Below, piece by piece: positions 9,931 to 41,476 of a stretch of 53,085 nucleotides of DNA; positions within the stretch are counted from its first letter, which is position 1, and the number at the start of each line of letters is the position of its first letter. Below the pieces are notes generated by a model. It saw only the letters and a list, made by a program, of their open reading frames with translations. It made no database searches and was not told the origin of the DNA. The stretch comes from an uncultured Candidatus Saccharibacteria bacterium (GTDB lineage: Bacteria > Patescibacteriota > Minisyncoccia > Minisyncoccales > Staskawiczbacteraceae), in contig CAZEXD010000001.1 in assembly GCA_964516865.1 (NCBI GenBank), forward strand, positions 1 through 53,085, read 5' to 3'. A program made the translations under genes and the position numbers.

Positions 9931-12381
9931 CTAATAAGGTAATGTTTTCAAAAACTCCTCAATATCAGCTTTTGCCGCAGGTTCTATTTTTAAGATTTCC
10001 AGAGCTGTTTCCCGCGCTTTTTTATATTCGCCAAGTTCTTTATATATAAAAGCTAAAGTAGCGTAATATTGGATGTTTTTTTTATCCATTTTTATTAACG
10101 ATTCATAAATAGGAGCAAGTTTTTTGTAATTTTTGGCGGTTGTATACACAATTGCCAGCTGGCTGTATGATTGCTGATTATCGTAGGAATATCCCTTTTC
10201 TTTAGCCAGTTCAATATCTTTTTCTCCTTCTTGCTCTTCGTTTAGCGCGATTTCAGACAGCCCGAGATACCAGTAGCAGGAGCTAAGATTGTCTTCCAAA
10301 ACAAGGCACTGCCCGGCTTTTTCTTTCATTTTTTTAAAGTCGGCTGAGGCAAAATAAGCTTCTGCCAAGCCCATTAAAACTTCCTGGCGTTTGGGGCTTA
10401 ATTTTTGGGCTTTTGCCAGATAGTTCTCGCTCTTTTCCAAAAGCGATTTTTTTATTTCAGGATTTGTCTCCCTGGCTATTAAAACATTATTAAACTGGGC
10501 TAATAGAATCCAGCTTCTTGTGTAATTTGGGTGTATTTTTGCGCTGTATTTTAAGGCGTCTATTGATTTTTTTATGTATTCTAATTCGTTGTCTTTAATA
10601 TAATTTTCGCAACTCTTTACATTATCCACATATTTTAAACGCAAAAAAGAATCAAGAAAACTTTTTTGGCTGAATAATTTTTCAAAATCCTGCAATTTTT
10701 TATCGCAAACCAAGTCCTCTGCTTTGTTTATTTCTGCGTTTATTAAGAGCGGTTTTAGGTTGTATTTCCACAAAAACAATATCAGTAAAACTAATAAGGT
10801 GGTGATAATGATTTTTTTATGTTTTAATATTTTTCCGCTGAAATTACGCTGATTACTACGCTGATTTTCGCTGAGATTTTCGGCGTTCTTCCGCGTGGCC
10901 ATCAGTGTTGAATCAGCGGTGCCTGGTAAAGTCAGGTGTAGGGAATAGCCAATTATAAAAAAGAGCATTATATGAGTCGTAACGCTGTTAAATTCAAAAA
11001 ATAAATCTGTAAAATAAGCGATAAAGATTGCCTGTATGGCGTGGGCTGATATCTGTGTTTCTTTTTGTTCTGTTCTGTGTTTTGATCTGTGTAGCCGCCA
11101 GAATAGATAACCAAAGAAAAAAAGATAAACTAATAAAAACGGCAATCCGTATTGCACGGCGATATCCAAAAATATATTGTGGGCTCGGTCCCACCAGTCC
11201 TCGGTGGTTTTAATAAGATATGGCAAAGAAGGGTCGTAATATTTGTCAAACGCGATTGATTGGTTTTCCGGACCCCAGCCCAAAATTGGTTTTTCTTGTA
11301 TCGCCTTAAAAAATGTCTGCCAGGCGGAAAAACGGGTTTTAGTCAAATCTTGCACAGTCTCTTTAACAGATAATCGGTTGGCGATAAAAGATAATTTTTG
11401 ATTGTTTTTAATGAAATCGGGGAGGTTAGTTGTAGTGTTTAAATATAAAATAGCGGCGGCGAGCAAGGTTAAAATTAAAAAACCCGCTATTTTTATTTTC
11501 GCTCCCTCAGAACTTCGCGGCAGAAACTTTTTGCACAGCAAAAAAATAGATTTTTTTTGTCTTGCCATAGATTGGATAATTTGTTGGGAATTTTGTTTTT
11601 GCCCGTTTTGTAAAGGCAATTTTTTAACCGGATAAAAGAGAAAAAAGTAAAGCAAGCCGACGGCTAACCCAAGATAGCCGGAACGGGAACCAGAGATAAA
11701 AAGTCCAAACAAGAACACTGCAAGAGACAAGACATAAAAAAGTTTTTTTATTCCCCTTTCTTTTATAACGAAAGATAGAGCCGGGAAAAATAAAAGCAGC
11801 AGATAAATCGCCAGAAGTATAGGGCTGGATAGGGTAGAGGGCGGTCTGCTCTCGTAAGGAATAAAAATTTTAGGCAGAAGATTGTAATACTGTATCGCGG
11901 CAAAAAGCACGGCTATAATGCCAATGCAAAAAGAAAAGTCCCAAAGTTTTTTCCAATCTTTTTCTTTTGCGATTAGAAATAAGATTGCCGCGAATAGAAT
12001 ATAAAAAGCAAAATTTATAAATCCTCCGGAGCGGTGGGGCGACGTCCATAAACTAAACAAAACATCGCGCGAAAATATTGTTGACAAAAGAGCAAGCAGA
12101 AAAACTGCGCAAAAAATCCAAAAAATCATTTTTTGGCCGGCAATCCTTTCTTTTATTTGGTTTATAAATTTGTTTTCAAAGATTATTTGCCAGATAAAAA
12201 CAAGCAAAATAATAGAAAAAACAATTCTAAAAACAATTGCTTTTCCCCATTCCGGGGGGAAAAAATAAGGCGGAAGCGCTAAAATCGGCAAAGCTAAAAT
12301 TATAAAAAATCCGGTTAAATATAACCAATGAAGTTTATTAGAATGAGTGGGCATTGTTGTTTGAGTTAGGTTAATAGCCAA
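9931..12381 (-). CDS. Wzy_C (O-antigen ligase / O-oligosaccharyltransferase family) polytopic membrane protein with C-terminal TPR domain
   Basis: Many TM helices; SGSRSGYLGLAVGLLYFF and WGPENQS...WWDRAHNIFLDIAVQYGLPFLL match Wzy_C signatures; one more TM, then TPR-like repeats (YYATLAFIYKELGEYKKARETALEILKIEP). Confidence 0.8.
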   Translation of the reverse strand: MAINLTQTTMPTHSNKLHWLYLTGFFIILALPILALPPYFFPPEWGKAIVFRIVFSIILLVFIWQIIFENKFINQIKERIAGQKMIFWIFCAVFLLALLSTIFSRDVLFSLWTSPHRSGGFINFAFYILFAAILFLIAKEKDWKKLWDFSFCIGIIAVLFAAIQYYNLLPKIFIPYESRPPSTLSSPILLAIYLLLLFFPALSFVIKERGIKKLFYVLSLAVFLFGLFISGSRSGYLGLAVGLLYFFLFYPVKKLPLQNGQKQNSQQIIQSMARQKKSIFLLCKKFLPRSSEGAKIKIAGFLILTLLAAAILYLNTTTNLPDFIKNNQKLSFIANRLSVKETVQDLTKTRFSAWQTFFKAIQEKPILGWGPENQSIAFDKYYDPSLPYLIKTTEDWWDRAHNIFLDIAVQYGLPFLLVYLFFFGYLFWRLHRSKHRTEQKETQISAHAIQAIFIAYFTDLFFEFNSVTTHIMLFFIIGYSLHLTLPGTADSTLMATRKNAENLSENQRSNQRNFSGKILKHKKIIITTLLVLLILFLWKYNLKPLLINAEINKAEDLVCDKKLQDFEKLFSQKSFLDSFLRLKYVDNVKSCENYIKDNELEYIKKSIDALKYSAKIHPNYTRSWILLAQFNNVLIARETNPEIKKSLLEKSENYLAKAQKLSPKRQEVLMGLAEAYFASADFKKMKEKAGQCLVLEDNLSSCYWYLGLSEIALNEEQEGEKDIELAKEKGYSYDNQQSYSQLAIVYTTAKNYKKLAPIYESLIKMDKKNIQYYATLAFIYKELGEYKKARETALEILKIEPAAKADIEEFLKTLPY

Positions 12382-19390: not shown

Positions 19391-20323
19391 ATGTGCATAA
19401 AAAAGATATTAATTACAGGTTCCTCTGGGACGATTGGCACCCGGCTTTTTGAAAAACTTTTGGAAAAAAACTATCAGGTTGTCGGTTTTGATAAAAAGAA
19501 GAATAAGTGGTATAAACATTTAGATGAATTGACTATAAAGGGAAATCTCTTAAATAAAAAAGATTTATTAAAAATCCCCAAAGGCATTAATTTAATAATT
19601 CATTTGGCGGCTAATGCCCGCGTTTATGATTTGGTGGTAAACCCGGATTTGGCTTTGGAAAATGTGATTTCTACCTACAATATTTTAGAATTTGCGCGCA
19701 AGAATAATATAAAAAAATTTATTTTCTCTTCTAGCAGAGAAGTATACGGCAACAGAAAAAAAGCGATTGCTAAAGAAAAAGAAGTTGATATTCAGTTATG
19801 CGAAAGCCCTTACGCCGCCAGCAAAATTTCAGATGAGGCGCTGATTTATTCTTTTTCAAAATGTTATGGCATAGATTATATTATTTTTCGTTTATCCAAT
19901 GTTTATGGAATGTATGATGAGAGCGACAGATTTATTCCTTTGATGATTAGAAAAATGCGCAAGAACGAAGATGTAGAGATTTATGGCAAAAACAAGCTTT
20001 TAGATTTTACCTATATTGACGATTGCGTAGAAGGTATAATTAAGGGAATTGAAAGATTTTCTTACGCAAAAAATAACACTTTTAACATCGCCAGCGGCAA
20101 GGGCGAAAAGTTAATTAAAGTTGCCCGGCTTCTTAAAAAAAGTTTAAACAGTAAAAGCAAAATTTTCATAAAACAAAGTCGTCAAGGCGAGGTAATTCAA
20201 TTTATCGCCGATATTTCTAAAGCAAAAAGATTGTTTAATTATATACCAAAGATTAATATAAACAGAGGAGTTAAGCTTTCAACAAAATGGTATTTTCACT
20301 ATGATTCCCTTGAACAGAATTAA
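19391..20323 (+). CDS. NAD-dependent sugar epimerase/dehydratase (SDR)
   Basis: ILITGSSGTIGTRLFEKLL; catalytic YAASK. Confidence 0.8.
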   Translation: MCIKKILITGSSGTIGTRLFEKLLEKNYQVVGFDKKKNKWYKHLDELTIKGNLLNKKDLLKIPKGINLIIHLAANARVYDLVVNPDLALENVISTYNILEFARKNNIKKFIFSSSREVYGNRKKAIAKEKEVDIQLCESPYAASKISDEALIYSFSKCYGIDYIIFRLSNVYGMYDESDRFIPLMIRKMRKNEDVEIYGKNKLLDFTYIDDCVEGIIKGIERFSYAKNNTFNIASGKGEKLIKVARLLKKSLNSKSKIFIKQSRQGEVIQFIADISKAKRLFNYIPKININRGVKLSTKWYFHYDSLEQN

Positions 20324-21785
20324 AAATATTTTATTAATTGAAAAATCCGGTTCTCTTTCCGAAAAAACAATAAAAGGAAGCGTGTGGCTTCTTCTTTTAC
20401 GCGTTGTTGATCAATTTCTTCGTTTTGTAAAGATAATTATTTTAGCCAGAATTTTATCTCCAAACGACTTTGGTCTTTTTGGAGCTTCTTTGGCTGTTTT
20501 TGCTATGGCGGAATCTTTTTCTCAAACAGGTTTTCAGCAGGCTTTAATTCAAAAAAAAGAAAATGTTAAAAATTATCTTAATACAGCTTGGACTATTCAA
20601 ATAATAAGAGGCCTTATTTTATCTATTATTTTATTTATTACCGCACCGTTAGCGGCCAATTTTTTTAAAACTCCTCAGATAGCGTTGATGATAAGAATTT
20701 TAGCGCTTTCAACTTTTTGTTCTAGTTTTACCAATATTGGCTTGGTTTATTTTCAAAAAGAACTGCAAATGCATAAGTATTTTATGTATCAATCTATAGG
20801 AGGTTTGTTAGATTTTTTAGCCACTGTGACTATAGTATTAATATGGCCTACTGTGTGGGCCCTTATTTTCGGTTTCTTAATGGGCAATATTTTTAAAATT
20901 ATAATCTCTTACAAAGTACACCCTTATCGTCCAAGATTTAAAATTAGTTTTACAAAAGCAAAAGAGCTTTTTAATTTTGGAAAATGGATTTTTAGTTCCA
21001 ACATTATTGGTTTTTTTATACTTCAAGGAGACAGTATTTTTATAGGTAAATTATTAGGAATGGCGTCTCTTGGTTTTTACCAGGTGGCGTATAAAATAGC
21101 GAGTTTTTTAAATACAGAAATAATTTTTGGCACTCTTTTTCCCGCTTATTCAAAAATACAGGATAATAAAGATGCGCTTAAAAAAGCATATTTTAACACG
21201 CTTAAAATATCATTTTTTATTTTTATGCCTATGGCCGGAGGGATTTTTGTGATATCAAATGATATAATAAAAATATTTTTTGGCGATAAATGGCTCCCGG
21301 CTGCGGTTCCTTTAAAATTTTTAATATGGTCCAGCCTGTTATGGGGTATTGTGACAATAACAGCCCCTTTAATTCAAGCTGTTGGAAAGCCAAAAATAGA
21401 AACATTTTGGAACGGAGTGAGATTTGCGCTTCTGTTACTTTTTCTCTACCCATTTGTTGCTATTTATGGAATATCCGGCGCCGCTTTGGTAGTTTTATTA
21501 AGCGTTTTTGTGTCAAGTGTTGGTTTTGTATTGTCGGCACTAAAGATTATTGGGGCAAAGATTAAAGATTTTTGGAAGATAATGGCAATTCCTTTTATTT
21601 CTACAATAATAATGATATTAATTGTTTGGCAAAGCGATTTAATATTTTTTGGGAGGATTAATCTTTTTTACAAAATAATATTGGGCGGGTTAATTTATTT
21701 TTTATTGATGTATATCGCAGAGAAAAAAAATTATTATCAAATAACCCCGCTTTTTAAAAGAATTTTATTTTTGTTTAAAGAATAA
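20301..21785 (+). CDS. wzx: Second Wzx-type flippase / polysaccharide biosynthesis protein (MOP superfamily)
   Basis: 494 aa multi-pass membrane protein; KGSVWLLLLRVVDQFLRFVKIIILARILSPNDFGLF is the typical family N-terminus. Confidence 0.7.
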   Translation: MIPLNRIKNILLIEKSGSLSEKTIKGSVWLLLLRVVDQFLRFVKIIILARILSPNDFGLFGASLAVFAMAESFSQTGFQQALIQKKENVKNYLNTAWTIQIIRGLILSIILFITAPLAANFFKTPQIALMIRILALSTFCSSFTNIGLVYFQKELQMHKYFMYQSIGGLLDFLATVTIVLIWPTVWALIFGFLMGNIFKIIISYKVHPYRPRFKISFTKAKELFNFGKWIFSSNIIGFFILQGDSIFIGKLLGMASLGFYQVAYKIASFLNTEIIFGTLFPAYSKIQDNKDALKKAYFNTLKISFFIFMPMAGGIFVISNDIIKIFFGDKWLPAAVPLKFLIWSSLLWGIVTITAPLIQAVGKPKIETFWNGVRFALLLLFLYPFVAIYGISGAALVVLLSVFVSSVGFVLSALKIIGAKIKDFWKIMAIPFISTIIMILIVWQSDLIFFGRINLFYKIILGGLIYFLLMYIAEKKNYYQITPLFKRILFLFKE

Positions 21786-21820: not shown

Positions 21821-24007
21821 ATGAAAAACATTAAAATTTTAGCTACTATTGGGCCTTCCTCATTTAAAAAGGAGATTATTCAAAAAATGGATTCTTTTGG
21901 CGTAGATTTGTTCCGGCTTAATCTTTCTCATACAAAAATTGAAGATTTTAAAAACTTTGTTAAAGAAATTAAGCAATGGACAAAAAAACCAATTTGTATT
22001 GACACGGAAGGGGCTCAAATTAGAACCGGTAAATTTAAAAAAGACAAAATTTTGGCTCAGAATAATTCTATTGTTTCTTTGGTTCCTGCCGAAATTTTGG
22101 GCGACAAAAAAAACATTCCTCTTTATCCTATTATTCCCCACAAAGTTTTAAAAGAAGGAGATATTCTTTATTTGGATTTTCATAATGTAATAATTCAGGT
22201 GATAAAAATTAACGGCAAGGAGGTTAAAGCCAGAATATTGGAAGGAGGATGGGTGGGGTCAAACAAAGGAGTAAATATGGATAGACCTCTTGATTTGCCG
22301 GCTTTTACGAAGAAGGACTTGGCAATTTTTCAAATAGCAAAAAAAGAAGAAATGAATTATATCGCTTTATCTTTCGCCTCCAGAAAAGAAGACATTGAAG
22401 AATTAAGAAAAATTTTTCAATACCCCATTTTTGTTATTAGCAAAATAGAAAGCAGGAAGGGAGTAGAAAATGTGGAAGAAATTTGTCGATATAGCGATGC
22501 TATTTTAATTGACAGAATGGATTTGTCTCGCGATATACCCTTGCAAAAAATAGGCTTGGCCCAAAAATCTATTTTAGATACCGTAAAAAAAATTAAGAAA
22601 CCTGTTTTTGTGGCTACAAACCTTTTGGATGCAATGATGGAAAACTTTCAACCGACAAGGAGCGAAATTAATGATATCACCAATATTTTATTATCAGGCG
22701 CCTCAGGTTTGGTTTTGGCGGCGGAAACAGCCATTGGAAAACATCCAGCCGAGTGTGTCAGAATGGCAAGTGGGATAATAAAAGAGGTAATAAGATATCA
22801 AAAGGAAAAAGATAAAAAATATTTAACTTCGATTTACGATTATAATTTAATTGAACCTCACGGAGGCGAATTGGTGCAAAATATTATTAATAAAGAAGCG
22901 ATTCAAAACATCGATAAATTGCCAAAATTAAAAATTTCAAAAGAGACAATATTGGATGTAGTTCAAATTGTGGAAGGAACGTATTCGCCGCTGAGAGGAT
23001 TTATGGATTTCAAGAATTTAATTTCGGTTTTAGATAATTATAGGCTTTCAAATGGAATAATTTGGACTTTGCCGATTTTGTTGCAAGCGACTAAAAAAGA
23101 GATTAAATTTAAAGAAGGGGAAACCGTCGCTCTTTTGGAAGAAACTGGAAAAGAGGTATTTGCTTTAATAAATGTTTCTGAAATTAAGAAAATTGATTTA
23201 GAAAAAATAGCCAAAAAGTGGTTTGGGACAACTGATAAATCGCACCCTGGGGTGGTTAATTTCAAAAAGAAAGGAGATTATATAATAGCTGGAGAAGTTT
23301 TTTTAATTGAGAAACCAAATTCTTACGCTGAGTTTTATGCTTTAACCCCGAAGCAAAGTAGGGAAATTTTTAAGAACTTTGGTTGGCAAAAAATTGTAGG
23401 GTTTCATACCAGGAATGTTATTCACCGAGGGCATGAATTTATCCAGAAAGAAGCTTTAAAGAAAGCCGACGCCGACGCTTTGTTTATAAGTCCTGTTATT
23501 GGTCCCAAGAAAAAAGGTGATTTTACTGCTCAAGCGATTGTTTCGGCATACGAAGTGATGATTAATAAAAAATACTATCATCCTTATTCGGCAATTATTG
23601 GAGCATTTGCGACATATTCAAGATATTCAGGACCGAGAGAGGCGGTTTTTACCGCTTTGTGCAGAAAAAATTTCGGATGTAGTCATTTTATTGTTGGTCG
23701 TGATCATACGGGTGTAGGCAATTTTTATAAACCGGATGCCTCGCAGAAGATATTTCAAAAAATAGGCGATATTGGTATTGTTCCCTTATTTTTTAACACT
23801 GCTTATTTTTGCAAAAAATGCGGTCAGGTGACAGATTATTGTAGGCACGGAGAGGAATCAAAAATAACTATTAGCGGTACAAAAATAAGGAATTGTTTGA
23901 TAAACAATGAAAAAATACCCGATTATCTGATGCGAAATGATATTAGTAAAATGCTCAAAGATATGTACAAATCTAATAAAGATATTTTATTTGAAAAAGG
24001 AGAATAA
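21821..24007 (+). CDS. sat: Fusion protein: pyruvate-kinase-like barrel (about aa 1-335) + complete sulfate adenylyltransferase (ATP sulfurylase, about aa 340-728)
   Basis: PK motifs ILATIGPSS, FRLNLSHT, ISKIESRKGVEN, ATNLLDAM, PTRSEINDITN, LAAETAIGKHP. Sat motifs GFHTRNVIHRGHEF (QxRNxxHxxH-like) and IVGRDHTGVG. One uninterrupted ORF. Confidence 0.8.
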   Translation: MKNIKILATIGPSSFKKEIIQKMDSFGVDLFRLNLSHTKIEDFKNFVKEIKQWTKKPICIDTEGAQIRTGKFKKDKILAQNNSIVSLVPAEILGDKKNIPLYPIIPHKVLKEGDILYLDFHNVIIQVIKINGKEVKARILEGGWVGSNKGVNMDRPLDLPAFTKKDLAIFQIAKKEEMNYIALSFASRKEDIEELRKIFQYPIFVISKIESRKGVENVEEICRYSDAILIDRMDLSRDIPLQKIGLAQKSILDTVKKIKKPVFVATNLLDAMMENFQPTRSEINDITNILLSGASGLVLAAETAIGKHPAECVRMASGIIKEVIRYQKEKDKKYLTSIYDYNLIEPHGGELVQNIINKEAIQNIDKLPKLKISKETILDVVQIVEGTYSPLRGFMDFKNLISVLDNYRLSNGIIWTLPILLQATKKEIKFKEGETVALLEETGKEVFALINVSEIKKIDLEKIAKKWFGTTDKSHPGVVNFKKKGDYIIAGEVFLIEKPNSYAEFYALTPKQSREIFKNFGWQKIVGFHTRNVIHRGHEFIQKEALKKADADALFISPVIGPKKKGDFTAQAIVSAYEVMINKKYYHPYSAIIGAFATYSRYSGPREAVFTALCRKNFGCSHFIVGRDHTGVGNFYKPDASQKIFQKIGDIGIVPLFFNTAYFCKKCGQVTDYCRHGEESKITISGTKIRNCLINNEKIPDYLMRNDISKMLKDMYKSNKDILFEKGE

Positions 24008-24014
24008 GACAAAA

Positions 24015-24539
24015 ATGATAATTTGGTTTACCGGGCTTTCCGGTTCGGGCAAAACAACATTGGCAAGATATTTAAAAGAGATTTTAGAAAGAAATGGTTT
24101 TTCTGTTTTTCATATTGATGGAGATGTTTTTCGCACTCAGTATAAGAAAGAAAACAGATTTTGTCGCAAAGACATTATAGAAAATAATAGGAATATAATT
24201 TCTTATTGTTCGCAATTGAAAAAAAATTATGATTTTTTGCTTGTTTCGGTTATCGCTCCCTATCAAAAGACGAGAGACGAGGCAAGAAAAATTTTTCAAA
24301 AGGAATATTTGGAAATATTTTTAAATTGTCCCTTGGAGATTTTGATAAAAAATGATGTAAAAGGATTGTACAAAAAAGCGAAAAAAGGAGAAATTAAAAA
24401 TCTAATTGGTTTCTCCCAAAACTCTCCTTATGAAAAACCACAAAAACCAGATTTAGAAATAAGGACAGATAAAACCAATATAGAGGAGTCCTTAAAGCAG
24501 ATAATAGATTTAATTAAGAAAAATGGAATCTCAATCTGA
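24015..24539 (+). CDS. cysC: Adenylylsulfate (APS) kinase
   Basis: MIIWFTGLSGSGKTTLARYL P-loop, about 175 aa, directly after sat; ATG 24015 preferred over the track's 23937 start. Confidence 0.8.
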   Translation: MIIWFTGLSGSGKTTLARYLKEILERNGFSVFHIDGDVFRTQYKKENRFCRKDIIENNRNIISYCSQLKKNYDFLLVSVIAPYQKTRDEARKIFQKEYLEIFLNCPLEILIKNDVKGLYKKAKKGEIKNLIGFSQNSPYEKPQKPDLEIRTDKTNIEESLKQIIDLIKKNGISI

Positions 24540-25269
24540 AAAAATAATATTAGTTGCAGATTATGGTCGGTCAGGGCAGGGCTGGCTTTCTTATATGCTC
24601 TGTTATATTTTAAATGCCCGATTTATTGAACCATATGATTTTTTAAAAGGTAGAAAGTATTCCAAATCCGATTATGTTTTTAACCTCACTCAGGGAAATT
24701 TGCCGGACAGAGAAAAGACTTGTTATTCAATGGTGGTGAAAACTCACGAGTTTCCCGCACCCGATTTTAATTTAACAGATAAGGTGATTTTTTTAACTCG
24801 CGACCCGAGAGATGTGGCTGTTTCTGCTTATTATATGCACTTATTTTATGAAAAAAAATACAGGAAATTAAGAAGTTTTTTAGGAAGGATAGTGAGTTTA
24901 ATAAGAAGTATTAGAATAATAAATTATATTCGCACAGCTAAGGGTTGGAAAAAGTATTTTCAAAAATGGCAAGAAGTGCCGTATTATTTTGTAAGATACG
25001 AAGATTTATTGTTAAAAACTAAAGAAACCTTAAATGGTATTTTGGATTACCTTGGCGTTTCGGTAAAAGAGAATATTATTGAAGAAGCCGTTAATAAATT
25101 TTCTTTTGAAAAAATAACCGGTAGAAAAAAAGGAGAAGAAGACCCAAACAACCCCGAATTTAGAAAAGGTATTATTGGAGATTACAAAAATCATTTTTCA
25201 AAATCAGAATTAATAATCTTTAAATTAATCTGCGGGAAAGAAGCAAAAAAGGCAGGTTATAATTTATAA
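24523..25269 (+). CDS. PAPS-dependent sulfotransferase (Sulfotransfer_1-like)
   Basis: 5'-PSB loop-like YGRSGQGWL, 3'-PB motif LTRDPRDVAVSAYY, and RKGIIGDYKNHFS (RKGxxGDWKNxF-type). Confidence 0.85.
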   Translation: MESQSEKIILVADYGRSGQGWLSYMLCYILNARFIEPYDFLKGRKYSKSDYVFNLTQGNLPDREKTCYSMVVKTHEFPAPDFNLTDKVIFLTRDPRDVAVSAYYMHLFYEKKYRKLRSFLGRIVSLIRSIRIINYIRTAKGWKKYFQKWQEVPYYFVRYEDLLLKTKETLNGILDYLGVSVKENIIEEAVNKFSFEKITGRKKGEEDPNNPEFRKGIIGDYKNHFSKSELIIFKLICGKEAKKAGYNL

Positions 25270-25271
25270 AT

Positions 25272-26012
25272 ATGATTAATTTTCAAGAATACGCTGATTA
25301 TTACGATTTGTTATATCAAGACAAGGATTACAAAAAAGAATGTGATTTTTTGCTTTCCGTTATTAAAAAGCATTCTCCCATAGAAGTAAGAAGTATTTTA
25401 AGTTTGGGTTGCGGAACAGCCAATCACGATATTATTTTAGCCAGAAAAGGATTTAAAATTACAGGTATAGATAGGTCAAAAAAGATGATTAAAATTGCGG
25501 AGGAAAAAGCAAAAAAAGAAAATTTAGACATTGAATTTAAAATAGCCGATATTACAGATTTTAAAATTAATAAAAAACTTGATTTTGCAATGGCAATGTT
25601 TAATGTTGTTGGTTATTTAACAGAAAATATGCAGATGGAAAAAATGTTAAAGAATATAAATAGAGTTTTAAAAAAGAGCGCTTTGTTTGTTTTTGATTGC
25701 TGGTACGGGCCGGCAGTTTTAAAAAGCCGTCCCGAAAATAGAGAAAAAGAAATTAGAAAAGGATTTATAAGAAAGACAACTCAAAAATTAGATATAGAAA
25801 AAAGTATTATTGATATAAATTTTGAAATGTTAGAGAATGGAAAATTTTTAGCCAAGGAAAACCACAAAATGAGATTTTGGTACCTAAAAGAATTAGAATA
25901 TTTTTTGGAAGAAAATGATTTTGAATTGATAAAAGTTTGCAATTTTTTAGATTTGAATTCAAAAATTTCAGAAGATAATTGGAATATTTTTGTCATAGCC
26001 AGAAAAAAATAA
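25272..26012 (+). CDS. Class I SAM methyltransferase (TylM1/DesVI-like layout; possible sugar N-methyltransferase)
   Basis: YADYYDLLYQDKDYKKE...ILSLGCGTANHDIILARKGFKITGIDRSKKMI; MFNVVGYL. Confidence 0.75.
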   Translation: MINFQEYADYYDLLYQDKDYKKECDFLLSVIKKHSPIEVRSILSLGCGTANHDIILARKGFKITGIDRSKKMIKIAEEKAKKENLDIEFKIADITDFKINKKLDFAMAMFNVVGYLTENMQMEKMLKNINRVLKKSALFVFDCWYGPAVLKSRPENREKEIRKGFIRKTTQKLDIEKSIIDINFEMLENGKFLAKENHKMRFWYLKELEYFLEENDFELIKVCNFLDLNSKISEDNWNIFVIARKK

Positions 26013-27214
26013 TGAAAAAGAACATAGGCATTTTATTTTCATCTTCCCGTAAAATGGGAGTTTTCCAGTATGGATTAAGCATTGTTGAGGCATTAGTAAA
26101 TTTTACTGACAATTTTGATTTTACTATTTTATATTTTGATTTAGAAAACCCGAAAGATTTTTTAAAAGTTAAAAGTTTAGAAAAAGCAAAACTTGTTTCT
26201 TTAAATGGCAAGCAAAACAATTTTTTAGAAAAGATTAAATTTGCCTTAAATTGTTTTTTGGCAAAACCAGTATTTATAACCAATAAAAAAAACAAAGAGA
26301 TATTAAAGGAGGCAAAAATAGACCTTCTAATTATTCCTTTTCCGCTTTTGCTGGGCTTTGAAAACAAAATACCCTATATTGTTTCGGTTCCAGATATGAT
26401 GCACAGGTATTATTCTTATTTTTCCGAGTATTCTTTCAAAAATAGAATTATTCGTGATATAGTTTATAAAGTTGCAGTAAAACATTCAATTTTAACTATT
26501 GTTGATTCTCAGTGGGGGAGCAATGACTTGCAGAAATTTTACAAAACCCCAAAAGAAAAAATCCATATTGTCCCTTATTTGCCGCCAGGTTATGTTTGGC
26601 AATATAAAGATATGGATTTAATTGAGGCGACTAATTTGTTAAGAAAATATAATTTGCCTGAAAAATTTATTTTTTATCCAGCGCAATTCTGGGAGCATAA
26701 AAACCACTTAAATCTTATAAAATCAATAAAAATATTAGAAGAAAAATTTAAAGAAATTATTCCCTTAGTTTTAGTGGGTGACGAGAAAGCCAATTCTAAA
26801 AATTATAATAATATAATAAAGTTAGCAGAAAGATTAAATATAAAAAACAGAGTATGGCACTTAGGTTATGTTGAGGACAAAGAAATGGTGGCATTATATA
26901 AAAAAGCCATTGCTTTAGTTTTTCCTACCTTAATTGGTCCTACCAACATTCCGCCTTTGGAATCAATGGTTTTGGGTACTCCTGTTCTATGTTCCAATTT
27001 ATTTGCTATGCCAGAACAGGTTGGCGATGCTGGTATTCTTTTTGACCCCAAAAGCCCAGAAGATATGGCAGAGAAAATTTACAAGGTTTGGACAGATGAA
27101 GATTTAAGAAAGAAAATGATTGAAAAAGGATATCAAAAAGTAAAAAATCTTACATTTGAGAATTACGCTCAAATGTGGATTTCTGCAGTTAAAAAAGCAT
27201 TAAGTAATTTATGA
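26012..27214 (+). CDS. Family 4 (GT-B) glycosyltransferase
   Basis: C-terminal LVFPTLIGPTNIPPLESMVLGTPVLCSNLFAMPEQVGDAGILFDP; TAATG overlap with the upstream stop favours ATG 26012. Confidence 0.75.
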   Translation: MKKNIGILFSSSRKMGVFQYGLSIVEALVNFTDNFDFTILYFDLENPKDFLKVKSLEKAKLVSLNGKQNNFLEKIKFALNCFLAKPVFITNKKNKEILKEAKIDLLIIPFPLLLGFENKIPYIVSVPDMMHRYYSYFSEYSFKNRIIRDIVYKVAVKHSILTIVDSQWGSNDLQKFYKTPKEKIHIVPYLPPGYVWQYKDMDLIEATNLLRKYNLPEKFIFYPAQFWEHKNHLNLIKSIKILEEKFKEIIPLVLVGDEKANSKNYNNIIKLAERLNIKNRVWHLGYVEDKEMVALYKKAIALVFPTLIGPTNIPPLESMVLGTPVLCSNLFAMPEQVGDAGILFDPKSPEDMAEKIYKVWTDEDLRKKMIEKGYQKVKNLTFENYAQMWISAVKKALSNL

Positions 27215-27633
27215 CAAAAGAAACTGAAACAATAAAAGATAAAAAAGGCAATATTATTGCCATAATTATTTACAACGATTTTCATAAAGAAGGGACTAAT
27301 TTTTTCACTCCTTCTGATTTTTCCCAACAATTGGCTTTTATTTCAAGAAAAGCCGGTGAAAAAATTCCAGCCCATACTCATAATATTATCAAGAGAGATA
27401 TTTTTTATACCCAAGAAACTTTATTTATTAAAAAAGGAAAAATAAAAGTGAATTTTTACAATAACGATAAAAATTATTTTGACTCAAGAATTCTAAATGA
27501 AGGTAATACCATTCTTTTGGCGTCGGGTGGACACGGTTTTGAATTTTTAGAAGACAGCGAGTTAATAGAAATAAAACAAGGTCCCTATCTAAACGATGCT
27601 GACAAGGTTAGATTTAATGGTATTGAAAAATAA
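27211..27633 (+). CDS. Small cupin-fold sugar-nucleotide-modifying protein (WbuC / ketoisomerase-like), copy 1
   Basis: 140 aa; PAHTHN (HxH) and GGHGFEFLEDSELIEIKQGPY; paralogue of 30770..31183; ATGA overlap with the upstream gene. Confidence 0.5.
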   Translation: MTKETETIKDKKGNIIAIIIYNDFHKEGTNFFTPSDFSQQLAFISRKAGEKIPAHTHNIIKRDIFYTQETLFIKKGKIKVNFYNNDKNYFDSRILNEGNTILLASGGHGFEFLEDSELIEIKQGPYLNDADKVRFNGIEK

Positions 27634-27636
27634 AAT

Positions 27637-28758
27637 ATGATACCGGTGAATAAACCATTATTTATAAGCGATGAAAAAAAGTATTTAGCTGAATGTATTG
27701 ATTCTGGATGGATTTCATCTGAGGGTCCTTTTGTTAAAGAATTTGAAGAAAAATTCAGTAAATATGTTGGAAAAAAATATGGTGTTGCTGTTTCTTCGGG
27801 AACAGCGGCTTTGGAAGTGGCTGTCGGCGCTATTGGTTTAAAACCGGGAGAGGAAGTCATAATGCCAACTTTTACAATAATTTCTTGCGCTTTGGCTGTT
27901 GTAAATTACGGCGGAGTGCCAGTTTTTGTTGATTCAGAGCCAGATACCTGGAATATGGACCCAAACAAGATAGAAGAAAAAATTACCAAAAAAACAAAAG
28001 CGATAATGCCAGTTCATATTTATGGTCACTCTTGCGATATGGATAAGATTTTAAGAATTGCTAAAAAATATAAATTAAAAATTATTGAAGATGCGGCCGA
28101 AGCCCATGGTGCAGAATATAAAGGGGAAAAATGCGGTTCTTTTGGAGATATTTCCTGTTTTAGTTTTTACGCCAATAAAATAATTTCTTGCGGAGAAGGC
28201 GGAATGGTTTTGACTGACAATAAAAATTATTTTGAAAAAGCCAAAGATTTAAGAAATTTGGCTTTTGGCAAGAAAAAAAGATTTATTCACAAAGAACTTG
28301 CCAGAAATTATAGAATGACAAATTTACAGGCGGCAGTGGGAGTAGCCCAGCTTAAAAATATTGAAAAATTAATAAAAATAAAACGAAATAACGCAAAAAC
28401 CTATACAGAATTATTAAAAAACATTAAGGGATTGCAGTTGCCGGTAGAAAAAGATTATGCGAAAAATGTTTATTGGATGTACGGAATTGTTTTGGATAAA
28501 TCAACCGGTTTTACCGCCGAAACTTTTGCTGAAAAATTAGCAAAAAAAGGTATTCAAACAAGACCATTTTTTTATCCTTTACATCTGCAACCTTGCTTAC
28601 AAAAATTTATCAAAAAAACAAAAGAAAAATATCCAGTTGCTGAAAAATTGGCAAAACAAGGTCTTTATTTGCCCTCCGGTCTTGGCTTGAAAAAAGAGGA
28701 AATTGAGATAATATGTAGTATTATTAAAGAATTGTTAAAAAATGATAGACCTAACTAA
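27637..28758 (+). CDS. DegT/DnrJ/EryC1-family PLP aminotransferase, GDP-perosamine-synthase-like
   Basis: MIPVNKP...KYLAECIDSGWISSEGPFV..., SFYANKIISCGEGGMV (PLP Lys), YRMTNLQAAVGVAQL resemble Per/RfbE as I recall it; adjacent to gmd. Confidence 0.7.
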   Translation: MIPVNKPLFISDEKKYLAECIDSGWISSEGPFVKEFEEKFSKYVGKKYGVAVSSGTAALEVAVGAIGLKPGEEVIMPTFTIISCALAVVNYGGVPVFVDSEPDTWNMDPNKIEEKITKKTKAIMPVHIYGHSCDMDKILRIAKKYKLKIIEDAAEAHGAEYKGEKCGSFGDISCFSFYANKIISCGEGGMVLTDNKNYFEKAKDLRNLAFGKKKRFIHKELARNYRMTNLQAAVGVAQLKNIEKLIKIKRNNAKTYTELLKNIKGLQLPVEKDYAKNVYWMYGIVLDKSTGFTAETFAEKLAKKGIQTRPFFYPLHLQPCLQKFIKKTKEKYPVAEKLAKQGLYLPSGLGLKKEEIEIICSIIKELLKNDRPN

Positions 28759-29683
28759 AAAAAAGATTTTAATTACAGGAGCCAATGGTTTTGTGGGAAA
28801 GCATTTAGTTAAAAACTTGTTAGAAAAGAGAAAGGTTCCAAAAGAAAATCTATATTTGCCCACTATTGAAGAATTAGATTTAAGATATCGGGAAAATTGC
28901 CAAAAAGCCGTCAAAGGACAGGAGATAGTTATTCATTTGGCGGCAAAGGTTGGTGGTATTGGATTTAATTTAGAAAAACCCGGAGAGCTGTTTTATGATA
29001 ATTTGATAATGGGAGCTCATTTAATGGAAGCGGCAAGACAAGCCGGGGTGGAAAAATTTGTTTCAATAATAACAGTTTGCGCTTATCCAAAATTTACACC
29101 CGTTCCTTTTAAAGAAGAAAATCTCTGGAATGGTTATCCTGAAGAAACAAACGCTCCTTATGGTTTGGCAAAAAAAATGCTTTTGGTGCAAGGTCAGGCA
29201 TATAGAAAACAATATAATTTTAACGCAATTTCTCTTTTACCTCTGAATATGTATGGACCGGGAGATACTTTTGACCCGGAAAGGTCTCATGTGATAGCGG
29301 CGCTGATTAAAAAAGTTTACGAAGCAAAAAGAGATAAGAAAAACTTCATTGAGGTGTGGGGGACAGGTAAAGCGACCAGAGGATTTTTATATGTGGAAGA
29401 CGGCGCCGAAGGAATTTTGTTGGCAACAGAAAAATATGACAAGCCAGAACAGGTTAATCTGGGTTCTGATTTTGAAATATCAATAAAAGATTTGGCTGAA
29501 TTAATTTGTAAACTTATGGCTTTTAAAGGCGAAATCCGCTGGAACAAAACAAAACCGGATGGTCAGCCAAGAAGGTATTTAGATGTTTCCCGCGCCAAAA
29601 AAGAATTTGGTTTTGAGGCAAAGACAGATTTTGTTGAAGGATTAAGAAAGACAATTAAATGGTATGAAGAAAATCCTATTTAA
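28742..29683 (+). CDS. fcl: GDP-L-fucose synthase (GDP-4-keto-6-deoxymannose 3,5-epimerase/4-reductase)
   Basis: [44 protein letters not shown]; next to gmd. Confidence 0.8.
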
Positions 29684-29715
29684 CTTTAATTACAATTAAA
29701 ATTAATTTATTAAAT

Positions 29716-30777
29716 ATGCCTATAAAAAAAGCATTAATAACCGGAGTTACGGGTCAAGACGGGTCTTATTTAGCAGAATTTTTAATTTCCAAAGGTTATG
29801 AGGTTCATGGAATTGTTCGTCGGGCGAGCACTTTTAACACTTCAAGGATAGACCATATTATTGTTGACGAACAACATACACCGGGCGCAAAGTTTTTCTT
29901 TCATTATGGCGATATGATTGATAGTACAACCTTAATTTCTTTGATTCAGAAAATTCAGCCAGATGAAATCTATAATTTAGCCGCCCAATCACATGTTAAA
30001 GTGTCCTTTGAAATACCTGAATACACAGCCAATGCTGACGCTTTAGGAACTCTGCGATTATTGGAAGCAATTCGGTTTTTGGGTTTGGCTGATAAAATAA
30101 AATTCTATCAGGCATCTACAAGCGAAATGTTTGGAAAAGCACCAGCACCCCAGTCAGAAAAAACTCCTTTTTATCCACGGAGTCCTTATGCGGCAGCGAA
30201 ACTTTATGCTCATTGGATAACAATAAATTATCGCGAGGCCTATAAAATTTTTGCTGTTAATGGCATACTTTTTAATCATGAAAGTCCAAGAAGGGGAGAA
30301 ACATTTGTAAGCAGAAAAATTACTCGAGGTATTGCTCGAATAAAAGCCGGTTTAGAGAAAAAAATTTATTTAGGGAATATTGACGCTAAGAGAGATTGGG
30401 GGTTTGCGCCTGAGTATTGCGAAGCAATGTATAAAATGCTTCAAGAGAATAAACCAGACGACTATGTAATTGCTACCAGAGAAACACACTCTGTTAAAGA
30501 ATTTTTGGAGGAAGCGTTTAAATATGCCGGACTTGGGGATTGGAAACAATATGTAGAAGTTGACCCTCGTTATTTAAGGCCAACGGAAGTGGAGGTTTTA
30601 GTTGGCGATGCTTCAAAAGCAAAAGAAAAACTTGACTGGGAACCAAAAATAAAATTTAAAGATTTAGTAAAGATAATGATAGACGCAGATTTTAGGAAAT
30701 TAAATTTAGTTCCGCCCGGCGAAGGGGATAAAATTTTAAAAGAAAAATTTCCCAATCGCTGGTGGATTATTGATTAA
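29716..30777 (+). CDS. gmd: GDP-mannose 4,6-dehydratase
   Basis: [85 protein letters not shown]. Confidence 0.9.
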
Positions 30778-40905: not shown

Positions 40906-41476
40906 TGTTTTTGTTTCTGTGGTTGCGTTAATTATATTATTGCCGCTTTTTTTAATAATCGCTATTTTAATTAAGATTGATTCTAAAGAACCTGTATTTT
41001 TTAGGCAAGAAAGGATAGGTAAAAACGGAGAACCATTTTATATTTTAAAATTTAGGACTATGATTGAAGGAGCGGTAGATAAGGGTTTGGGATATACTGT
41101 GGCTCAAAACGACGAAAGAATAACAAGAATTGGTAAATTTTTAAGAAAGTGGGGGATTGATGAATTTCCTCAATTAATAAATGTTTTAAAAGGAGAAATG
41201 AGTTTAGTGGGTCCAAGACCGACTTTGAGATATCAGGTTGAGAAATATACTGATTTTCAAAAAAAAAGATTGCAGGTTAAGCCGGGAATAACCAGTTGGG
41301 CTTTAATTCACGGTAGAAACTTGCTTTCTTGGGAAGAAAGGATAAAATACGATGTTTGGTATATAGAAAATTGGTCTTTGTGGTTGGATATAAAAATAAT
41401 ATTAAAGACATTTTATCTAATTTTTATTAAACAAGAAGGAGTTTACGGCAAAGATGGCATAAACGACCCCTTTTAA
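40874..41476 (+). CDS. Small monotopic phosphoglycosyl transferase (PglC/WbaP-C-terminal 'bacterial sugar transferase' family), glycan initiator
   Basis: KRLFDVFVSVVALIILLPLFLIIAILIKIDSKEPVFFRQERIGKNGEPFYILKFRTM, DEFPQLINVLKGEMSLVGPRP. Confidence 0.9.
   Translation: MIKLFLKRLFDVFVSVVALIILLPLFLIIAILIKIDSKEPVFFRQERIGKNGEPFYILKFRTMIEGAVDKGLGYTVAQNDERITRIGKFLRKWGIDEFPQLINVLKGEMSLVGPRPTLRYQVEKYTDFQKKRLQVKPGITSWALIHGRNLLSWEERIKYDVWYIENWSLWLDIKIILKTFYLIFIKQEGVYGKDGINDPF

What the first reader, a model, noticed from the sequence alone, without database searches (positions are those of the whole stretch)
21821..25269. Complete sulfate-activation plus sulfotransferase module embedded in a glycan operon (sulfated surface glycan?)
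sat (fused), cysC (GLSGSGKTT) and a Sulfotransfer_1-type enzyme (YGRSGQGWL, RDPRDVAVSAYY, RKGIIGDYKNHFS) are packed with 8-nt gaps or overlaps. They run straight into a methyltransferase, a GT4 and sugar-nucleotide genes (TAATG and ATGA junctions).

No sulfite or PAPS reductase genes occur in the window. This argues that PAPS is made as a sulfuryl donor, not for assimilation. Sulfated bacterial glycans are uncommon; known examples include rhizobial Nod factors, mycobacterial sulfolipids and some cyanobacterial EPS. Such a pathway would be an unusual investment for a reduced genome.
Basis: partly seen in the sequence, partly recalled or inferred. Interest (0 to 1): 0.7.

Follow-up and report, generated by a model that had tools for sequence, protein, structure and literature searches.

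The report
Pyruvate-kinase-fused sulfate activation glycan cassette
A small, uncultivated bacterium carries, inside a surface-sugar operon, the genes to make "active sulfate" (PAPS) and attach it to a target. Its sulfate-activating enzyme is fused to a pyruvate kinase domain, a widespread layout we found described in no paper, which probably powers sulfation with phosphoenolpyruvate.

Summary
Window 21821-25269 holds three tightly packed + strand genes: an ATP sulfurylase fusion, APS kinase (true start probably 24015) and a Sulfotransfer_1 enzyme. They run directly into methyltransferase, GT4 and nucleotide-sugar genes of a Wzx/Wzy-type glycan locus. No PAPS or sulfite reductase is in the window.

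It is a pyruvate kinase (PK) barrel that lacks the PK C-terminal domain, followed by PUA_2 and ATP-sulfurylase. All PK catalytic positions checked are invariant in 119 homologues.

The architecture occurs in at least 80 species-level genomes from 15 or more phyla, nearly all metagenome-assembled. About 119 clusters at 50% identity span the domain junction. It sits next to APS kinase in 44 of 80 loci and near sulfotransferases in at least 36 of 80, typically among glycan or nonulosonic-acid genes. Only 1 of 80 loci has a CysH-like motif nearby. Two unfused cassettes (PK, Sat, CysC and sulfotransferase as separate genes) and variants with APS kinase as a fourth domain support a functional link.

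Best reading: a PAPS factory for cytoplasmic glycan sulfation, in which PK recycles ADP to ATP using PEP. The PK role and the acceptor are inferred, not shown. I found no literature on the fusion.

The parts
21821..24007 (+). PK-PUA_2-ATP sulfurylase fusion protein (728 aa)
   Evidence: Pfam PF00224, PF14306 and PF01747. Passes NCBIfam Sat cut-offs (NF003166 409>387; TIGR00339 334>323) but no PK cut-off. AF2 model pLDDT 88.
21824..22759 (+). Pyruvate-kinase (beta/alpha)8 barrel plus B-domain (aa 2-313). No PK_C domain.
   Evidence: Pfam 215 bits; best PDB matches are pyruvate kinases at 1e-45 to 1e-49. R32, N34, S36, H37, D61, R68, K208, E210, D234, T266 and E302 are invariant in 119 homologues. 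The window has a rare G233M.
22832..22858 (+). Flexible inter-domain linker (aa 338-346)
   Evidence: The only segment with pLDDT below 50 in the AF2 model.
22850..23959 (+). PUA-like and ATP sulfurylase catalytic domains (aa 344-713)
   Evidence: Best PDB match is 8a8d, Methanothermococcus ATP sulfurylase, 2.5e-94. HTRNVIHRGHE and GRDHTGVG are conserved family-wide.
24015..24539 (+). APS kinase (CysC), 174 aa
   Evidence: PF01583 3e-43. TIGR00455 171 bits, above the 138.7 cut-off. AAGGAG lies just upstream of the ATG at 24015.
24523..25269 (+). Soluble PAPS-dependent sulfotransferase (Sulfotransfer_1), 248 aa
   Evidence: PF00685 5e-23. Invariant GRSGQG, KTH, RDPRD..S and RKG..G in 34 homologues. 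AF2 pLDDT 93; SULT fold.
25272..26012 (+). SAM-dependent methyltransferase, co-conserved downstream of the sulfotransferase
   Evidence: Pfam Methyltransf_25/11. Same position in Staskawiczbacteria loci L001 and L002.
26012..27214 (+). GT4 glycosyltransferase (ATG at 26012 overlaps the methyltransferase stop: TAATG)
   Evidence: PF00534 8e-31; junction read.
27211..28758 (+). Small WbuC-like cupin (weak hit) plus DegT-family sugar aminotransferase
   Evidence: TIGR04366 7e-7, below cut-off. PF01041 8e-122. The pair recurs in related loci as c34+DegT.
28742..30777 (+). Fcl-like reductase/epimerase and GDP-mannose 4,6-dehydratase (GDP-6-deoxyhexose supply)
   Evidence: TIGR01472 541 bits, above the 415 cut-off. 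NF047922 272 bits, below the 500 cut-off.
20301..21785 (+). Wzx-type flippase immediately upstream (35-nt gap)
   Evidence: PF13440 1e-77. Same position in L001.
40874..41476 (+). Polyprenyl-phosphate glycosyl-1-phosphate transferase that initiates the lipid-linked glycan
   Evidence: PF02397 6e-72. TIGR03025 296.7 bits, above the 295.55 cut-off.
9931..12381 (-). Wzy_C-domain plus TPR membrane protein (polymerase, ligase or O-oligosaccharyltransferase candidate)
   Evidence: PF04932 6e-23. Conserved beside the locus in L001 and L002.

Best explanation
The three genes form a dedicated PAPS-producing and PAPS-using cassette that sulfates a sugar of a lipid-linked or nucleotide-activated glycan on the cytoplasmic side, before the adjacent Wzx flippase exports it.

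Proposed steps:
1. The ATP-sulfurylase domain makes APS and PPi from ATP and sulfate.
2. CysC phosphorylates APS to PAPS, releasing ADP.
3. The pyruvate-kinase domain fused to the sulfurylase uses PEP to turn that ADP back into ATP. This keeps the local ATP/ADP ratio high, pulls the very unfavourable sulfurylase equilibrium through CysC, and prevents the inhibitory enzyme-ADP-APS complex of APS kinase. The net reaction is ATP + sulfate + PEP -> PAPS + PPi + pyruvate.
4. The 248-aa soluble sulfotransferase transfers sulfate from PAPS to the glycan. The neighbouring methyltransferase and GT4 act on the same unit.

Shown here: domain identities, conserved catalytic residues, operon structure, and conserved co-localisation across phyla.
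Inferred: PK activity and its coupling role, the carbohydrate acceptor, and the cell-surface destination.
For: 1. Domain assignments and curated cut-offs.
2. PK catalytic, metal and nucleotide-contact positions are invariant in 119 fusions at 46-100% identity, which indicates selection for catalysis.
3. The architecture is conserved in 80 of the 80 best genome loci from 15 or more phyla. About 119 clusters at 50% identity span the PK/PUA junction.
4. Neighbours within 10 kb: APS kinase in 44 of 80 loci (41 within 500 nt), a sulfotransferase in at least 36 of 80, a CysQ-like gene in 8 of 80, and any of these in 64 of 80. The other top neighbour families are NDP-sugar epimerases, DegT, CMP-sugar synthases, NeuB, GT2 and GT4.
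5. Rosetta-stone evidence: two unfused cassettes carry a stand-alone PK gene in the same block as Sat, CysC and the sulfotransferase (L089; L091, which also has a CysQ-like gene). Some relatives add APS kinase as a fourth domain (P0030, P0037, P0093 and P0104).
6. Same gene order in Staskawiczbacteria relatives.
7. [quoted passage not shown]
8. The sulfotransferase keeps the 5'-PSB, 3'-PB and catalytic His motifs and has no membrane segment in its model, so it must act in the cytoplasm.
Against: - There is no biochemical data for any family member.
- The window protein has Met instead of the near-invariant Gly233, next to the Mg-binding Asp234.
- In the AF2 model the domains are joined by a disordered linker and pTM is only 0.62, so there is no structural evidence for channelling.
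- 36 of 80 loci lack a nearby APS kinase, and 16 of 80 show none of APS kinase, sulfotransferase or CysQ within 10 kb.
- The fusion-type PK domains carry family-specific substitutions relative to canonical PKs (E63, A65, Q66, N267, D231, S236, A300-A301). These could signal a changed substrate or cation requirement.
- The sulfotransferase's nearest sequence and fold relatives are small-molecule cytosolic SULTs, not known carbohydrate sulfotransferases.
- No pyrophosphatase, CysQ or sulfate transporter is present in the window.
Confidence: 0.6

Rival explanations
1. Assimilatory sulfate reduction: Sat and CysC make PAPS for a PAPS reductase and sulfite reductase encoded elsewhere, and the sulfotransferase is incidental.
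For: Sat and CysC are also the first steps of assimilation. Only 53 kb of the genome was seen. One of the 80 related loci (L069, Methylococcaceae) has an ORF with the CysH motif ECGxH next to the fusion.
Against: No reductase is present in the window. cysC overlaps the sulfotransferase gene by 17 nt. In 79 of 80 related loci no CysH-like motif is nearby, and the neighbours are sulfotransferases and glycan genes. A CysQ-like PAP phosphatase, which is needed after sulfotransfer, accompanies the fusion in 8 loci.
Confidence: 0.05
2. The cassette makes PAPS, but the sulfotransferase modifies a non-carbohydrate acceptor such as a small metabolite, a lipid or a protein tyrosine, and is merely located in the glycan locus.
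For: The best PDB sequence and fold matches are all cytosolic small-molecule SULTs (E about 1e-12; TM 0.5-0.6). Bacterial glycopeptide sulfotransferases Teg12 and Teg14 are weaker matches. There is no curated NCBIfam family.
Against: The gene is translationally coupled between cysC and a methyltransferase/GT4 block. The same sulfotransferase clade sits beside NDP-sugar C-methyltransferases, DegT aminotransferases and flippases in distant taxa. TM scores of only 0.5-0.6 show that the acceptor-binding part differs from SULTs.
Confidence: 0.15
3. The PK domain does not regenerate ATP. It is a regulatory or oligomerisation module (for example sensing PEP), or it catalyses a different phosphoryl or sulfuryl transfer.
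For: It lacks the PK C-domain and fails all NCBIfam PK cut-offs. It carries invariant family-specific substitutions near the active site. The window copy has G233M. Fungal ATP sulfurylases are known to carry a degenerate APS-kinase-like allosteric domain, a precedent for a recruited non-catalytic kinase fold (own knowledge).
Against: Every canonical catalytic residue checked is invariant over 119 sequences down to 46% identity, which is unusual for a purely structural domain. Two unfused cassettes use a separate PK, one of them full length with PK_C. The B-domain lid is retained and confidently folded.
Confidence: 0.15
4. The PK domain is simply the cell's glycolytic pyruvate kinase, fused by chance to a neighbouring gene in a compact genome.
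For: CPR genomes are compact, and gene fusions and overlaps are common. The whole genome was not available to look for a second pyk.
Against: The same fusion, with the same junction, occurs in large genomes: a 14-Mb Caldilineaceae contig, 4-Mb Rhodospirillales chromosomes, Planctomycetota and Bacteroidota. The fusion type always lacks the allosteric C-domain. It is embedded in variable glycan loci rather than with core metabolism genes.
Confidence: 0.05

Closest known systems
Bifunctional PAPS synthases (metazoan PAPSS1/2; bacterial Sat/CysC fusions such as Aquifex aeolicus, PDB 2gks)
   Same: A homo-oligomeric Sat-type ATP sulfurylase works with APS kinase to make PAPS as a sulfuryl donor. 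Some relatives of the window protein even carry APS kinase as an extra C-terminal domain.
   Different: In the window CysC is a separate gene. The fused partner is an N-terminal pyruvate-kinase barrel, which no characterised PAPS synthase has.
CysDN / NodPQ sulfate adenylyltransferase (GTPase-coupled)
   Same: It solves the same thermodynamic problem, driving APS formation by coupling to hydrolysis or transfer of a second high-energy phosphate. In rhizobia NodPQ feeds the NodH sulfotransferase for a glycolipid.
   Different: The sulfurylase fold is unrelated (CysD, PP-loop) and is coupled to a GTPase. Here a Sat-type enzyme is tethered to a PEP-using kinase, and the proposed coupling is indirect, through the ATP/ADP pool.
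Stramenopile APS kinase-ATP sulfurylase-pyrophosphatase fusions (own knowledge; not tested here)
   Same: A helper enzyme that pulls the sulfurylase equilibrium is fused to it.
   Different: The helper removes PPi, whereas here the helper would remove ADP and regenerate ATP. The lineage and domain order also differ.
Bacterial glycan sulfation systems: NodH (Nod factor), Mesorhizobium loti KpsS (fucosyl sulfotransferase), mycobacterial Stf0 (review PMC11625862)
   Same: A cytoplasmic PAPS-dependent sulfotransferase is encoded with glycan-synthesis genes. The window locus also encodes a GDP-6-deoxyhexose pathway and a GT10 fucosyltransferase-like gene.
   Different: The window sulfotransferase belongs to an uncharacterised clade of about 250 aa, closest to eukaryotic cytosolic SULTs. 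No demonstrated homology to NodH, KpsS or Stf0 was obtained. The host is a CPR bacterium.
In vitro PAPS synthesis with PK/PEP ATP regeneration (own knowledge of biocatalysis practice)
   Same: The same three activities (ATPS, APSK, PK) are combined so that ADP is recycled with PEP.
   Different: That is an engineered mixture of separate enzymes. Here it appears as a natural single polypeptide or operon.

Membership tests
Sat-type ATP sulfurylase (PF01747 / TIGR00339) | PUA-like N-domain plus catalytic domain with QxRNxxHxxH and GRD(H)xG motifs; score above curated cut-off | tested here: met
   HTRNVIHRGHE and GRDHTGVG are present and family-invariant. NF003166 scores 409 (cut-off 387) and TIGR00339 scores 334 (cut-off 323). 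PDB 8a8d matches at 2.5e-94.
Pyruvate kinase | (beta/alpha)8 A-domain with inserted B-domain, and catalytic Lys/Glu/Asp/Thr plus Arg/Asn/Ser/Asp cation and PEP site | tested here: met
   PF00224 scores 215 bits over profile positions 2-328 of 328. K208, E210, D234, T266, R32, N34, S36, D61 and R68 are invariant. The barrel and beta-rich lid are modelled at pLDDT of about 90.
Pyruvate kinase | C-terminal allosteric/tetramerisation domain (PK_C, PF02887) and full-length equivalog score | tested here: not met
   No PF02887 hit. TIGR01064 scores 266, below the 306 cut-off, and all other PK models are also below cut-off.
Pyruvate kinase | PEP + ADP -> pyruvate + ATP activity | not testable with these tools
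   Requires an enzyme assay.
APS kinase (CysC) | P-loop GxxGxGK(S/T), DGD motif, score above curated cut-off | tested here: met
   GLSGSGKTT and HIDGD are present. TIGR00455 scores 171, above the 138.7 cut-off.
PAPS-dependent sulfotransferase (Sulfotransfer_1) | 5'-PSB loop, 3'-PB motif (RxxxxxxS), catalytic His, C-terminal RKGxxGxxK | tested here: met
   GRSGQG, RDPRDVAVS, KTH and RKGIIGDYK are present, and the core residues are invariant in 34 homologues. PF00685 scores 82 bits, above the 22 cut-off. SULT fold.
Carbohydrate sulfotransferase (NodH/Stf0/KpsS/heparan-type) | Demonstrable homology to, or shared acceptor-binding architecture with, a characterised glycan sulfotransferase | tested here: inconclusive
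   The listed top 50 fold hits and the best sequence hits in PDB are cytosolic small-molecule SULTs; the weaker sequence hits include retinol dehydratase and the glycopeptide sulfotransferases Teg12/14. No glycan sulfotransferase is among them. Only genomic context points to a glycan.
Bifunctional PAPS synthase (Sat-CysC on one chain) | ATP sulfurylase and APS kinase domains on one polypeptide | tested here: not met
   The window genes are separate: stop at 24007 and ATG at 24015. Four relatives do carry the APS kinase domain.
Assimilatory sulfate reduction operon | PAPS/APS reductase (CysH) and sulfite reductase linked to sat/cysC | tested here: not met
   No such Pfam hit in any window ORF tested. 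The ECGxH motif is absent from the window and present in only 1 of 80 related loci. The rest of the genome was not available.
Wzx/Wzy-dependent glycan locus | Initiating polyprenyl-P glycosylphosphotransferase, Wzx flippase, Wzy_C-type protein, glycosyltransferases, NDP-sugar enzymes | tested here: met
   PF02397/TIGR03025, PF13440 (two copies), PF04932, GT2/GT4/GT10, GMD, DegT and a UDP-Glc dehydrogenase.

The most novel reading that the evidence does not exclude
The PK-Sat fusion, with its unfused and four-domain variants, is a PEP-driven PAPS synthase. That would make it a third natural solution to the energetics of sulfate activation, alongside the CysN GTPase and pyrophosphatase. It would also be the signature enzyme of a laterally spread glycan-sulfation cassette in 15 or more mostly uncultivated phyla, including ultra-small CPR bacteria. 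Such a cassette could account for the chemically detected but genetically unexplained sulfated glycoconjugates in environmental biofilms and sludge EPS. A more radical sub-reading is that the PK-like domain, with its invariant non-canonical residues, has a new substrate such as another nucleotide or a sulfuryl/phosphoryl donor chemistry.
Probability: 0.45. Interest if true: 0.8.

Novelty: new variant of a known kind. Interest (0 to 1): 0.62.

Why it matters
1. Sulfated bacterial glycans are considered rare and their genetics are poorly known. Reviews and EPS studies say so explicitly (PMC11625862; PMC10483923). A recognisable, widespread cassette gives a genomic marker to find the producers, including CPR bacteria, for which I found no report of sulfation.

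2. A natural fusion or operon of ATP sulfurylase with pyruvate kinase points to a way of driving the very unfavourable sulfate activation step that I found described nowhere. It is directly testable with purified protein.

3. PAPS supply and ATP regeneration limit enzymatic production of sulfated polysaccharides, so a self-recycling PAPS synthase may be useful.

4. Public sources name these proteins either 'sulfate adenylyltransferase' or 'pyruvate kinase'. Metagenomic surveys may therefore miscount them as markers of sulfur cycling or of glycolysis.

Tried and rejected
- Literature: four searches on a PK/ATP-sulfurylase fusion or on sulfotransferases in CPR found nothing relevant. A Nitrospinota genomics paper that mentions both enzymes does not describe the fusion.
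- Acceptor from structure: the AF2 model of the sulfotransferase is confident, but the PDB fold search returned only cytosolic SULTs at TM 0.5-0.6. The acceptor therefore cannot be inferred.
- P0239 (sulfotransferase plus Methyltransf_13): I considered this a fusion hinting at an NDP-sugar acceptor. In L088 the next gene carries the rest of the C-methyltransferase, so it may be a read-through or frameshift. I use it only as adjacency evidence.
- Promoter and terminator scan of 19000-28000: it gave no more than the AT-rich background and no intergenic terminator inside the module, so it is uninformative.
- Alignment-container trick to annotate 39 neighbour clusters in one Pfam call: abandoned because that mode reports only aggregate counts. 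Representatives were scanned ten at a time instead.
- The motif 'IDRGDLS' is shared by fused and unfused cassette PKs, whereas the three canonical PKs aligned show ARGDxG. It is suggestive of a subfamily, but the unfused PKs are only 28-31% identical to the fused domain, no closer than ordinary PKs. I do not claim common descent.
- A first MAFFT run timed out.
- HMM counts differ slightly between two ORF-calling schemes: L029 and L076 were lost in the second. The counts are therefore lower bounds.

Full report
**1. Observation**

The stated interval contains three + strand ORFs.
- 21821-24007 (728 aa).
- 23937-24539, whose real start is most likely the ATG at 24015.
- 24523-25269 (248 aa).

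Pfam assigns the following:
- To the first ORF, a pyruvate-kinase barrel (PF00224, aa 2-313, 1.7e-63), a PUA-like domain (PF14306, aa 344-497) and ATP-sulfurylase (PF01747, aa 506-713, 3e-74).
- To the second, APS kinase (3e-43).
- To the third, Sulfotransfer_1 (5e-23).

I read the junctions directly.
- Fusion stop at 24007, an AAGGAG just upstream of the ATG, and the cysC ATG at 24015, giving a 7-nt gap.
- A 17-nt overlap between cysC and the sulfotransferase gene.
- A 2-nt gap to the methyltransferase.
- TAATG at 26010-26014.
- ATGA at 27211-27214.

The only correction is that the 'fused' sat is fused to a pyruvate-kinase domain.

**2. Surroundings**

Pfam and NCBIfam annotation of the window's substantial ORFs shows a glycan locus of about 35 kb, almost entirely on the + strand. 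It contains:
- a cytidylyltransferase;
- two Wzx-type flippases, one of which ends 35 nt before the fusion gene;
- GT2, GT4 and GT10 glycosyltransferases;
- a UDP-glucose dehydrogenase;
- GDP-mannose 4,6-dehydratase, which passes its equivalog cut-off, and an Fcl-like enzyme;
- three DegT aminotransferases;
- a small polyprenyl-phosphate glycosylphosphotransferase with an acetyltransferase, an aminotransferase and a PglF-like dehydratase;
- on the opposite strand, an 816-aa Wzy_C plus TPR protein.

No PAPS/APS reductase, sulfite reductase, CysQ, pyrophosphatase or sulfate permease was found. The CysH motif ECGxH is absent from all six frames. GC content of the module (0.32-0.34) matches its neighbours.

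**3. The fusion protein**

The ATP-sulfurylase part is orthodox.
- It exceeds the curated NCBIfam cut-offs for sulfate adenylyltransferase.
- It keeps the HxxH and GRDH motifs.
- Its closest solved structure is the Methanothermococcus enzyme (8a8d, 2.5e-94).

The N-terminal 313 residues align end to end with the A and B domains of solved pyruvate kinases (1e-45 to 1e-49), but the PK C-terminal domain is missing. This is why every NCBIfam PK model is below cut-off. It may also be why public sources call homologues sometimes 'sulfate adenylyltransferase' and sometimes 'pyruvate kinase'.

In an alignment of 119 full-length homologues (46-100% identity), the following are invariant:
- the PK catalytic Lys (K208);
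- the metal ligands (E210, D234);
- the proton-relay Thr (T266);
- the PEP, cation and nucleotide contacts (R32, N34, S36, H37, D61, R68);
- E302.

A set of family-specific residues that differ from canonical PKs is invariant or nearly so: E63, A65, Q66, D231, S236, N267 and A300-A301. The window copy is unusual in having Met where 117 of 119 homologues have Gly233.

An AlphaFold2 model (pLDDT 88, pTM 0.62) shows a complete barrel plus lid and a well-folded PUA/sulfurylase. They are joined by a disordered linker at residues 338-346.

**4. Distribution**

- The 120 best hits among 5.8 billion proteins all have the same three-domain architecture. Four of them add an APS-kinase domain.
- A scan of one genome per GTDB species returned 80 loci. 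All are full-length matches at 41-72% identity. They come from Patescibacteria (Staskawicz-, Nealson-, Colwell- and Saccharibacteria), Bacteroidota, Ignavibacteria, Bdellovibrionota, Planctomycetota (including anammox genera), Omnitrophota, Verrucomicrobiota, Nitrospinota, Acidimicrobiia, Chloroflexota, Marinimicrobia, Alphaproteobacteria, Elusimicrobia, Gemmatimonadota and others. Nearly all are MAGs.
- A 105-residue query spanning the PK/PUA junction retrieved 153 clusters at 50% identity with E of 1e-3 or better. About 119 of the 150 listed match across the junction.

The architecture is therefore rare but phylogenetically very widespread. The closest relatives of the window protein are Candidatus Staskawiczbacteria (69-72%), which have the same gene order. 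The window therefore most likely comes from a related CPR bacterium.

**5. Neighbourhoods**

I clustered ORFs within 10 kb of the fusion in the 80 loci and annotated the commonest clusters.
- APS kinase occurs in 44 of 80 loci (41 within 500 nt).
- A recognisable sulfotransferase occurs in at least 36 of 80. This count includes an unannotated family with GKSGGT and RDPRGVLNS motifs.
- A CysQ-like phosphatase occurs in 8 of 80.
- At least one of these three occurs in 64 of 80.

The other frequent neighbours are NDP-sugar epimerases/dehydratases (25 loci), DegT (19), SDRs (14), CMP-sugar synthases (13 and 8), NeuB (13), GT2 (11), UDP-GlcNAc 2-epimerase (11), ABC exporters (11), GT4 (10) and B12-radical-SAM enzymes (9).

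Only one locus has a CysH-like ORF.

Look-ups starting from the sulfotransferase gave three further loci.
- L090 has flippase / unknown / PK-Sat / CysC / sulfotransferase / C-methyltransferase / DegT.
- L089 is unfused: TauE-type permease, CysC, Sat, a stand-alone 447-aa PK and the sulfotransferase.
- L091 is also unfused: a full-length PK with PK_C, a CysQ-like gene, the sulfotransferase, CysC and Sat, followed by DegT, methyltransferase, GT4 and Wzy_C.

The same enzyme set thus occurs as separate genes, as a two-enzyme fusion and as a three-enzyme fusion. This is classic evidence for a functional partnership.

**6. The sulfotransferase**

It belongs to a clade of about 250-aa proteins known only from metagenomes (148 hits). 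Many lie on the same contigs as the fusion. There is no NCBIfam family.

The PAPS-binding and catalytic motifs are invariant. The AF2 model is confident (pLDDT 93) and soluble. The nearest solved relatives by sequence (E about 1e-12) and by fold (TM 0.5-0.6) are eukaryotic cytosolic SULTs.

The acceptor therefore cannot be read from the protein. The carbohydrate assignment rests on operon structure and conserved context.

**7. Mechanism proposed**

Established knowledge, summarised in PMC3734648:
- APS formation is strongly endergonic and must be pulled by downstream reactions.

A pyruvate kinase tethered to the sulfurylase, and in some relatives to the kinase as well, would convert the ADP released by CysC back to ATP at the expense of PEP. 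This would raise the local ATP/ADP ratio, pull both steps and relieve the inhibition. The net reaction is ATP + sulfate + PEP -> PAPS + PPi + pyruvate.

PAPS is then used by the soluble sulfotransferase on a cytoplasmic glycan intermediate, and the adjacent flippase exports the product. The Wzy_C protein may polymerise the glycan or transfer it. In a monoderm CPR cell the target would plausibly be a protein or a wall polymer.

Shown: domain identities, residue conservation, operon coupling and cross-phylum co-localisation.
Inferred: PK activity and its coupling role, the acceptor, and the final destination.

**8. Rivals**

- Assimilation is unlikely, because there are no reductase genes here or in 79 of 80 related loci, and cysC is translationally coupled to the sulfotransferase.
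- A non-glycan acceptor remains possible (about 0.15).
- A non-catalytic or re-purposed PK domain is possible (about 0.15) given the missing C-domain, the family-specific substitutions and G233M. Against it are the invariance of all catalytic residues checked and the unfused cassettes that carry ordinary-length PKs.
- An accidental fusion of the housekeeping PK is contradicted by the presence of the same fusion in large genomes and by its location in variable glycan loci.

**9. Comparison with known systems and novelty**

PAPS synthesis linked to a glycan sulfotransferase is a known kind of system: NodPQ/NodH, KpsS and Stf0 (PMC11625862). Sat-CysC fusions are also known (PDB 2gks).

What is different here:
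- the pyruvate-kinase partner;
- the uncharacterised sulfotransferase clade;
- the host range, which includes CPR bacteria.

Four literature searches found no description of any of these. Work on environmental EPS reports abundant sulfated glycoconjugates and states that the bacterial pathways are not well known (PMC10483923).

I therefore rate this a new variant of a known kind, with moderate to high interest. It is biochemically testable and useful as a genomic marker, but so far supported only by sequence and context.

Noticed in passing
window 18711-19384: An IS200-like Y1 transposase ORF (Pfam 1.3e-6) sits inside the glycan operon, between the UDP-glucose dehydrogenase and an epimerase. 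It is followed immediately by a GC-rich hairpin with an 11-bp stem at 19355-19384.
   Followed up: no
window 50654-51736: An rve-type integrase/transposase gene lies near the end of the window, after murB, a ribosome hibernation factor and a pyruvoyl-dependent arginine decarboxylase (49960-50502).
   Followed up: no
window 6028-9366: A 1112-aa ORF with no Pfam hit occupies the only GC-rich stretch of the window (0.44 against about 0.30 elsewhere).
   Followed up: no
window 14202-15686 and 20301-21785: Two Wzx-type flippase genes occur in one locus. The Staskawiczbacteria relative L001 also has two. This suggests a composite locus or two glycans.
   Followed up: partly
window 9931-12381 (- strand): An 816-aa Wzy_C plus TPR protein is conserved beside the locus in relatives. 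In a cell without an outer membrane it may be a polymerase or an O-oligosaccharyltransferase rather than an O-antigen ligase.
   Followed up: no
window 22517-22519 (aa 233 of the fusion): The window protein has Met (ATG) where 117 of 119 homologues have Gly, directly before the Mg-binding Asp of the PK active site. This could reduce PK activity in this particular organism.
   Followed up: partly
L089 4420-8765 and L091 4777-9398: Unfused sulfation cassettes carry stand-alone pyruvate kinase genes. L089 also has a TauE-family anion permease next to APS kinase, and L091 has a CysQ-like phosphatase. Both stand-alone PKs carry 'IDRGDLS', like the fused domains.
   Followed up: partly
L018:8074-9036; L014:8080-9021: A family of about 320 aa with no Pfam hit lies next to CysQ/PK-Sat/CysC in Bacteroidota and Ignavibacteria. 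It has sulfotransferase-like GKSGGT and RDPRGVLNS motifs and a weak match to the CurM sulfotransferase (E 0.29). It is probably an unannotated sulfotransferase family.
   Followed up: partly
window 27211-27633 and 30770-31183: Two small paralogous ORFs (140 and 137 aa) each precede a sugar-modifying gene. They have only a sub-threshold WbuC-cupin match. The first is conserved next to DegT in related loci.
   Followed up: partly
window 41644-42171 and 47618-48193: A Trp-repressor-like protein and a PaaX_M (Cas2-like domain) protein flank the bacillosamine-type genes at the end of the glycan locus.
   Followed up: no
L069:3044-3916: This is the only one of the 80 related loci (Methylococcaceae) with a CysH-like ECGxH ORF next to the PK-Sat fusion. 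It may be an assimilatory use of the fusion.
   Followed up: no
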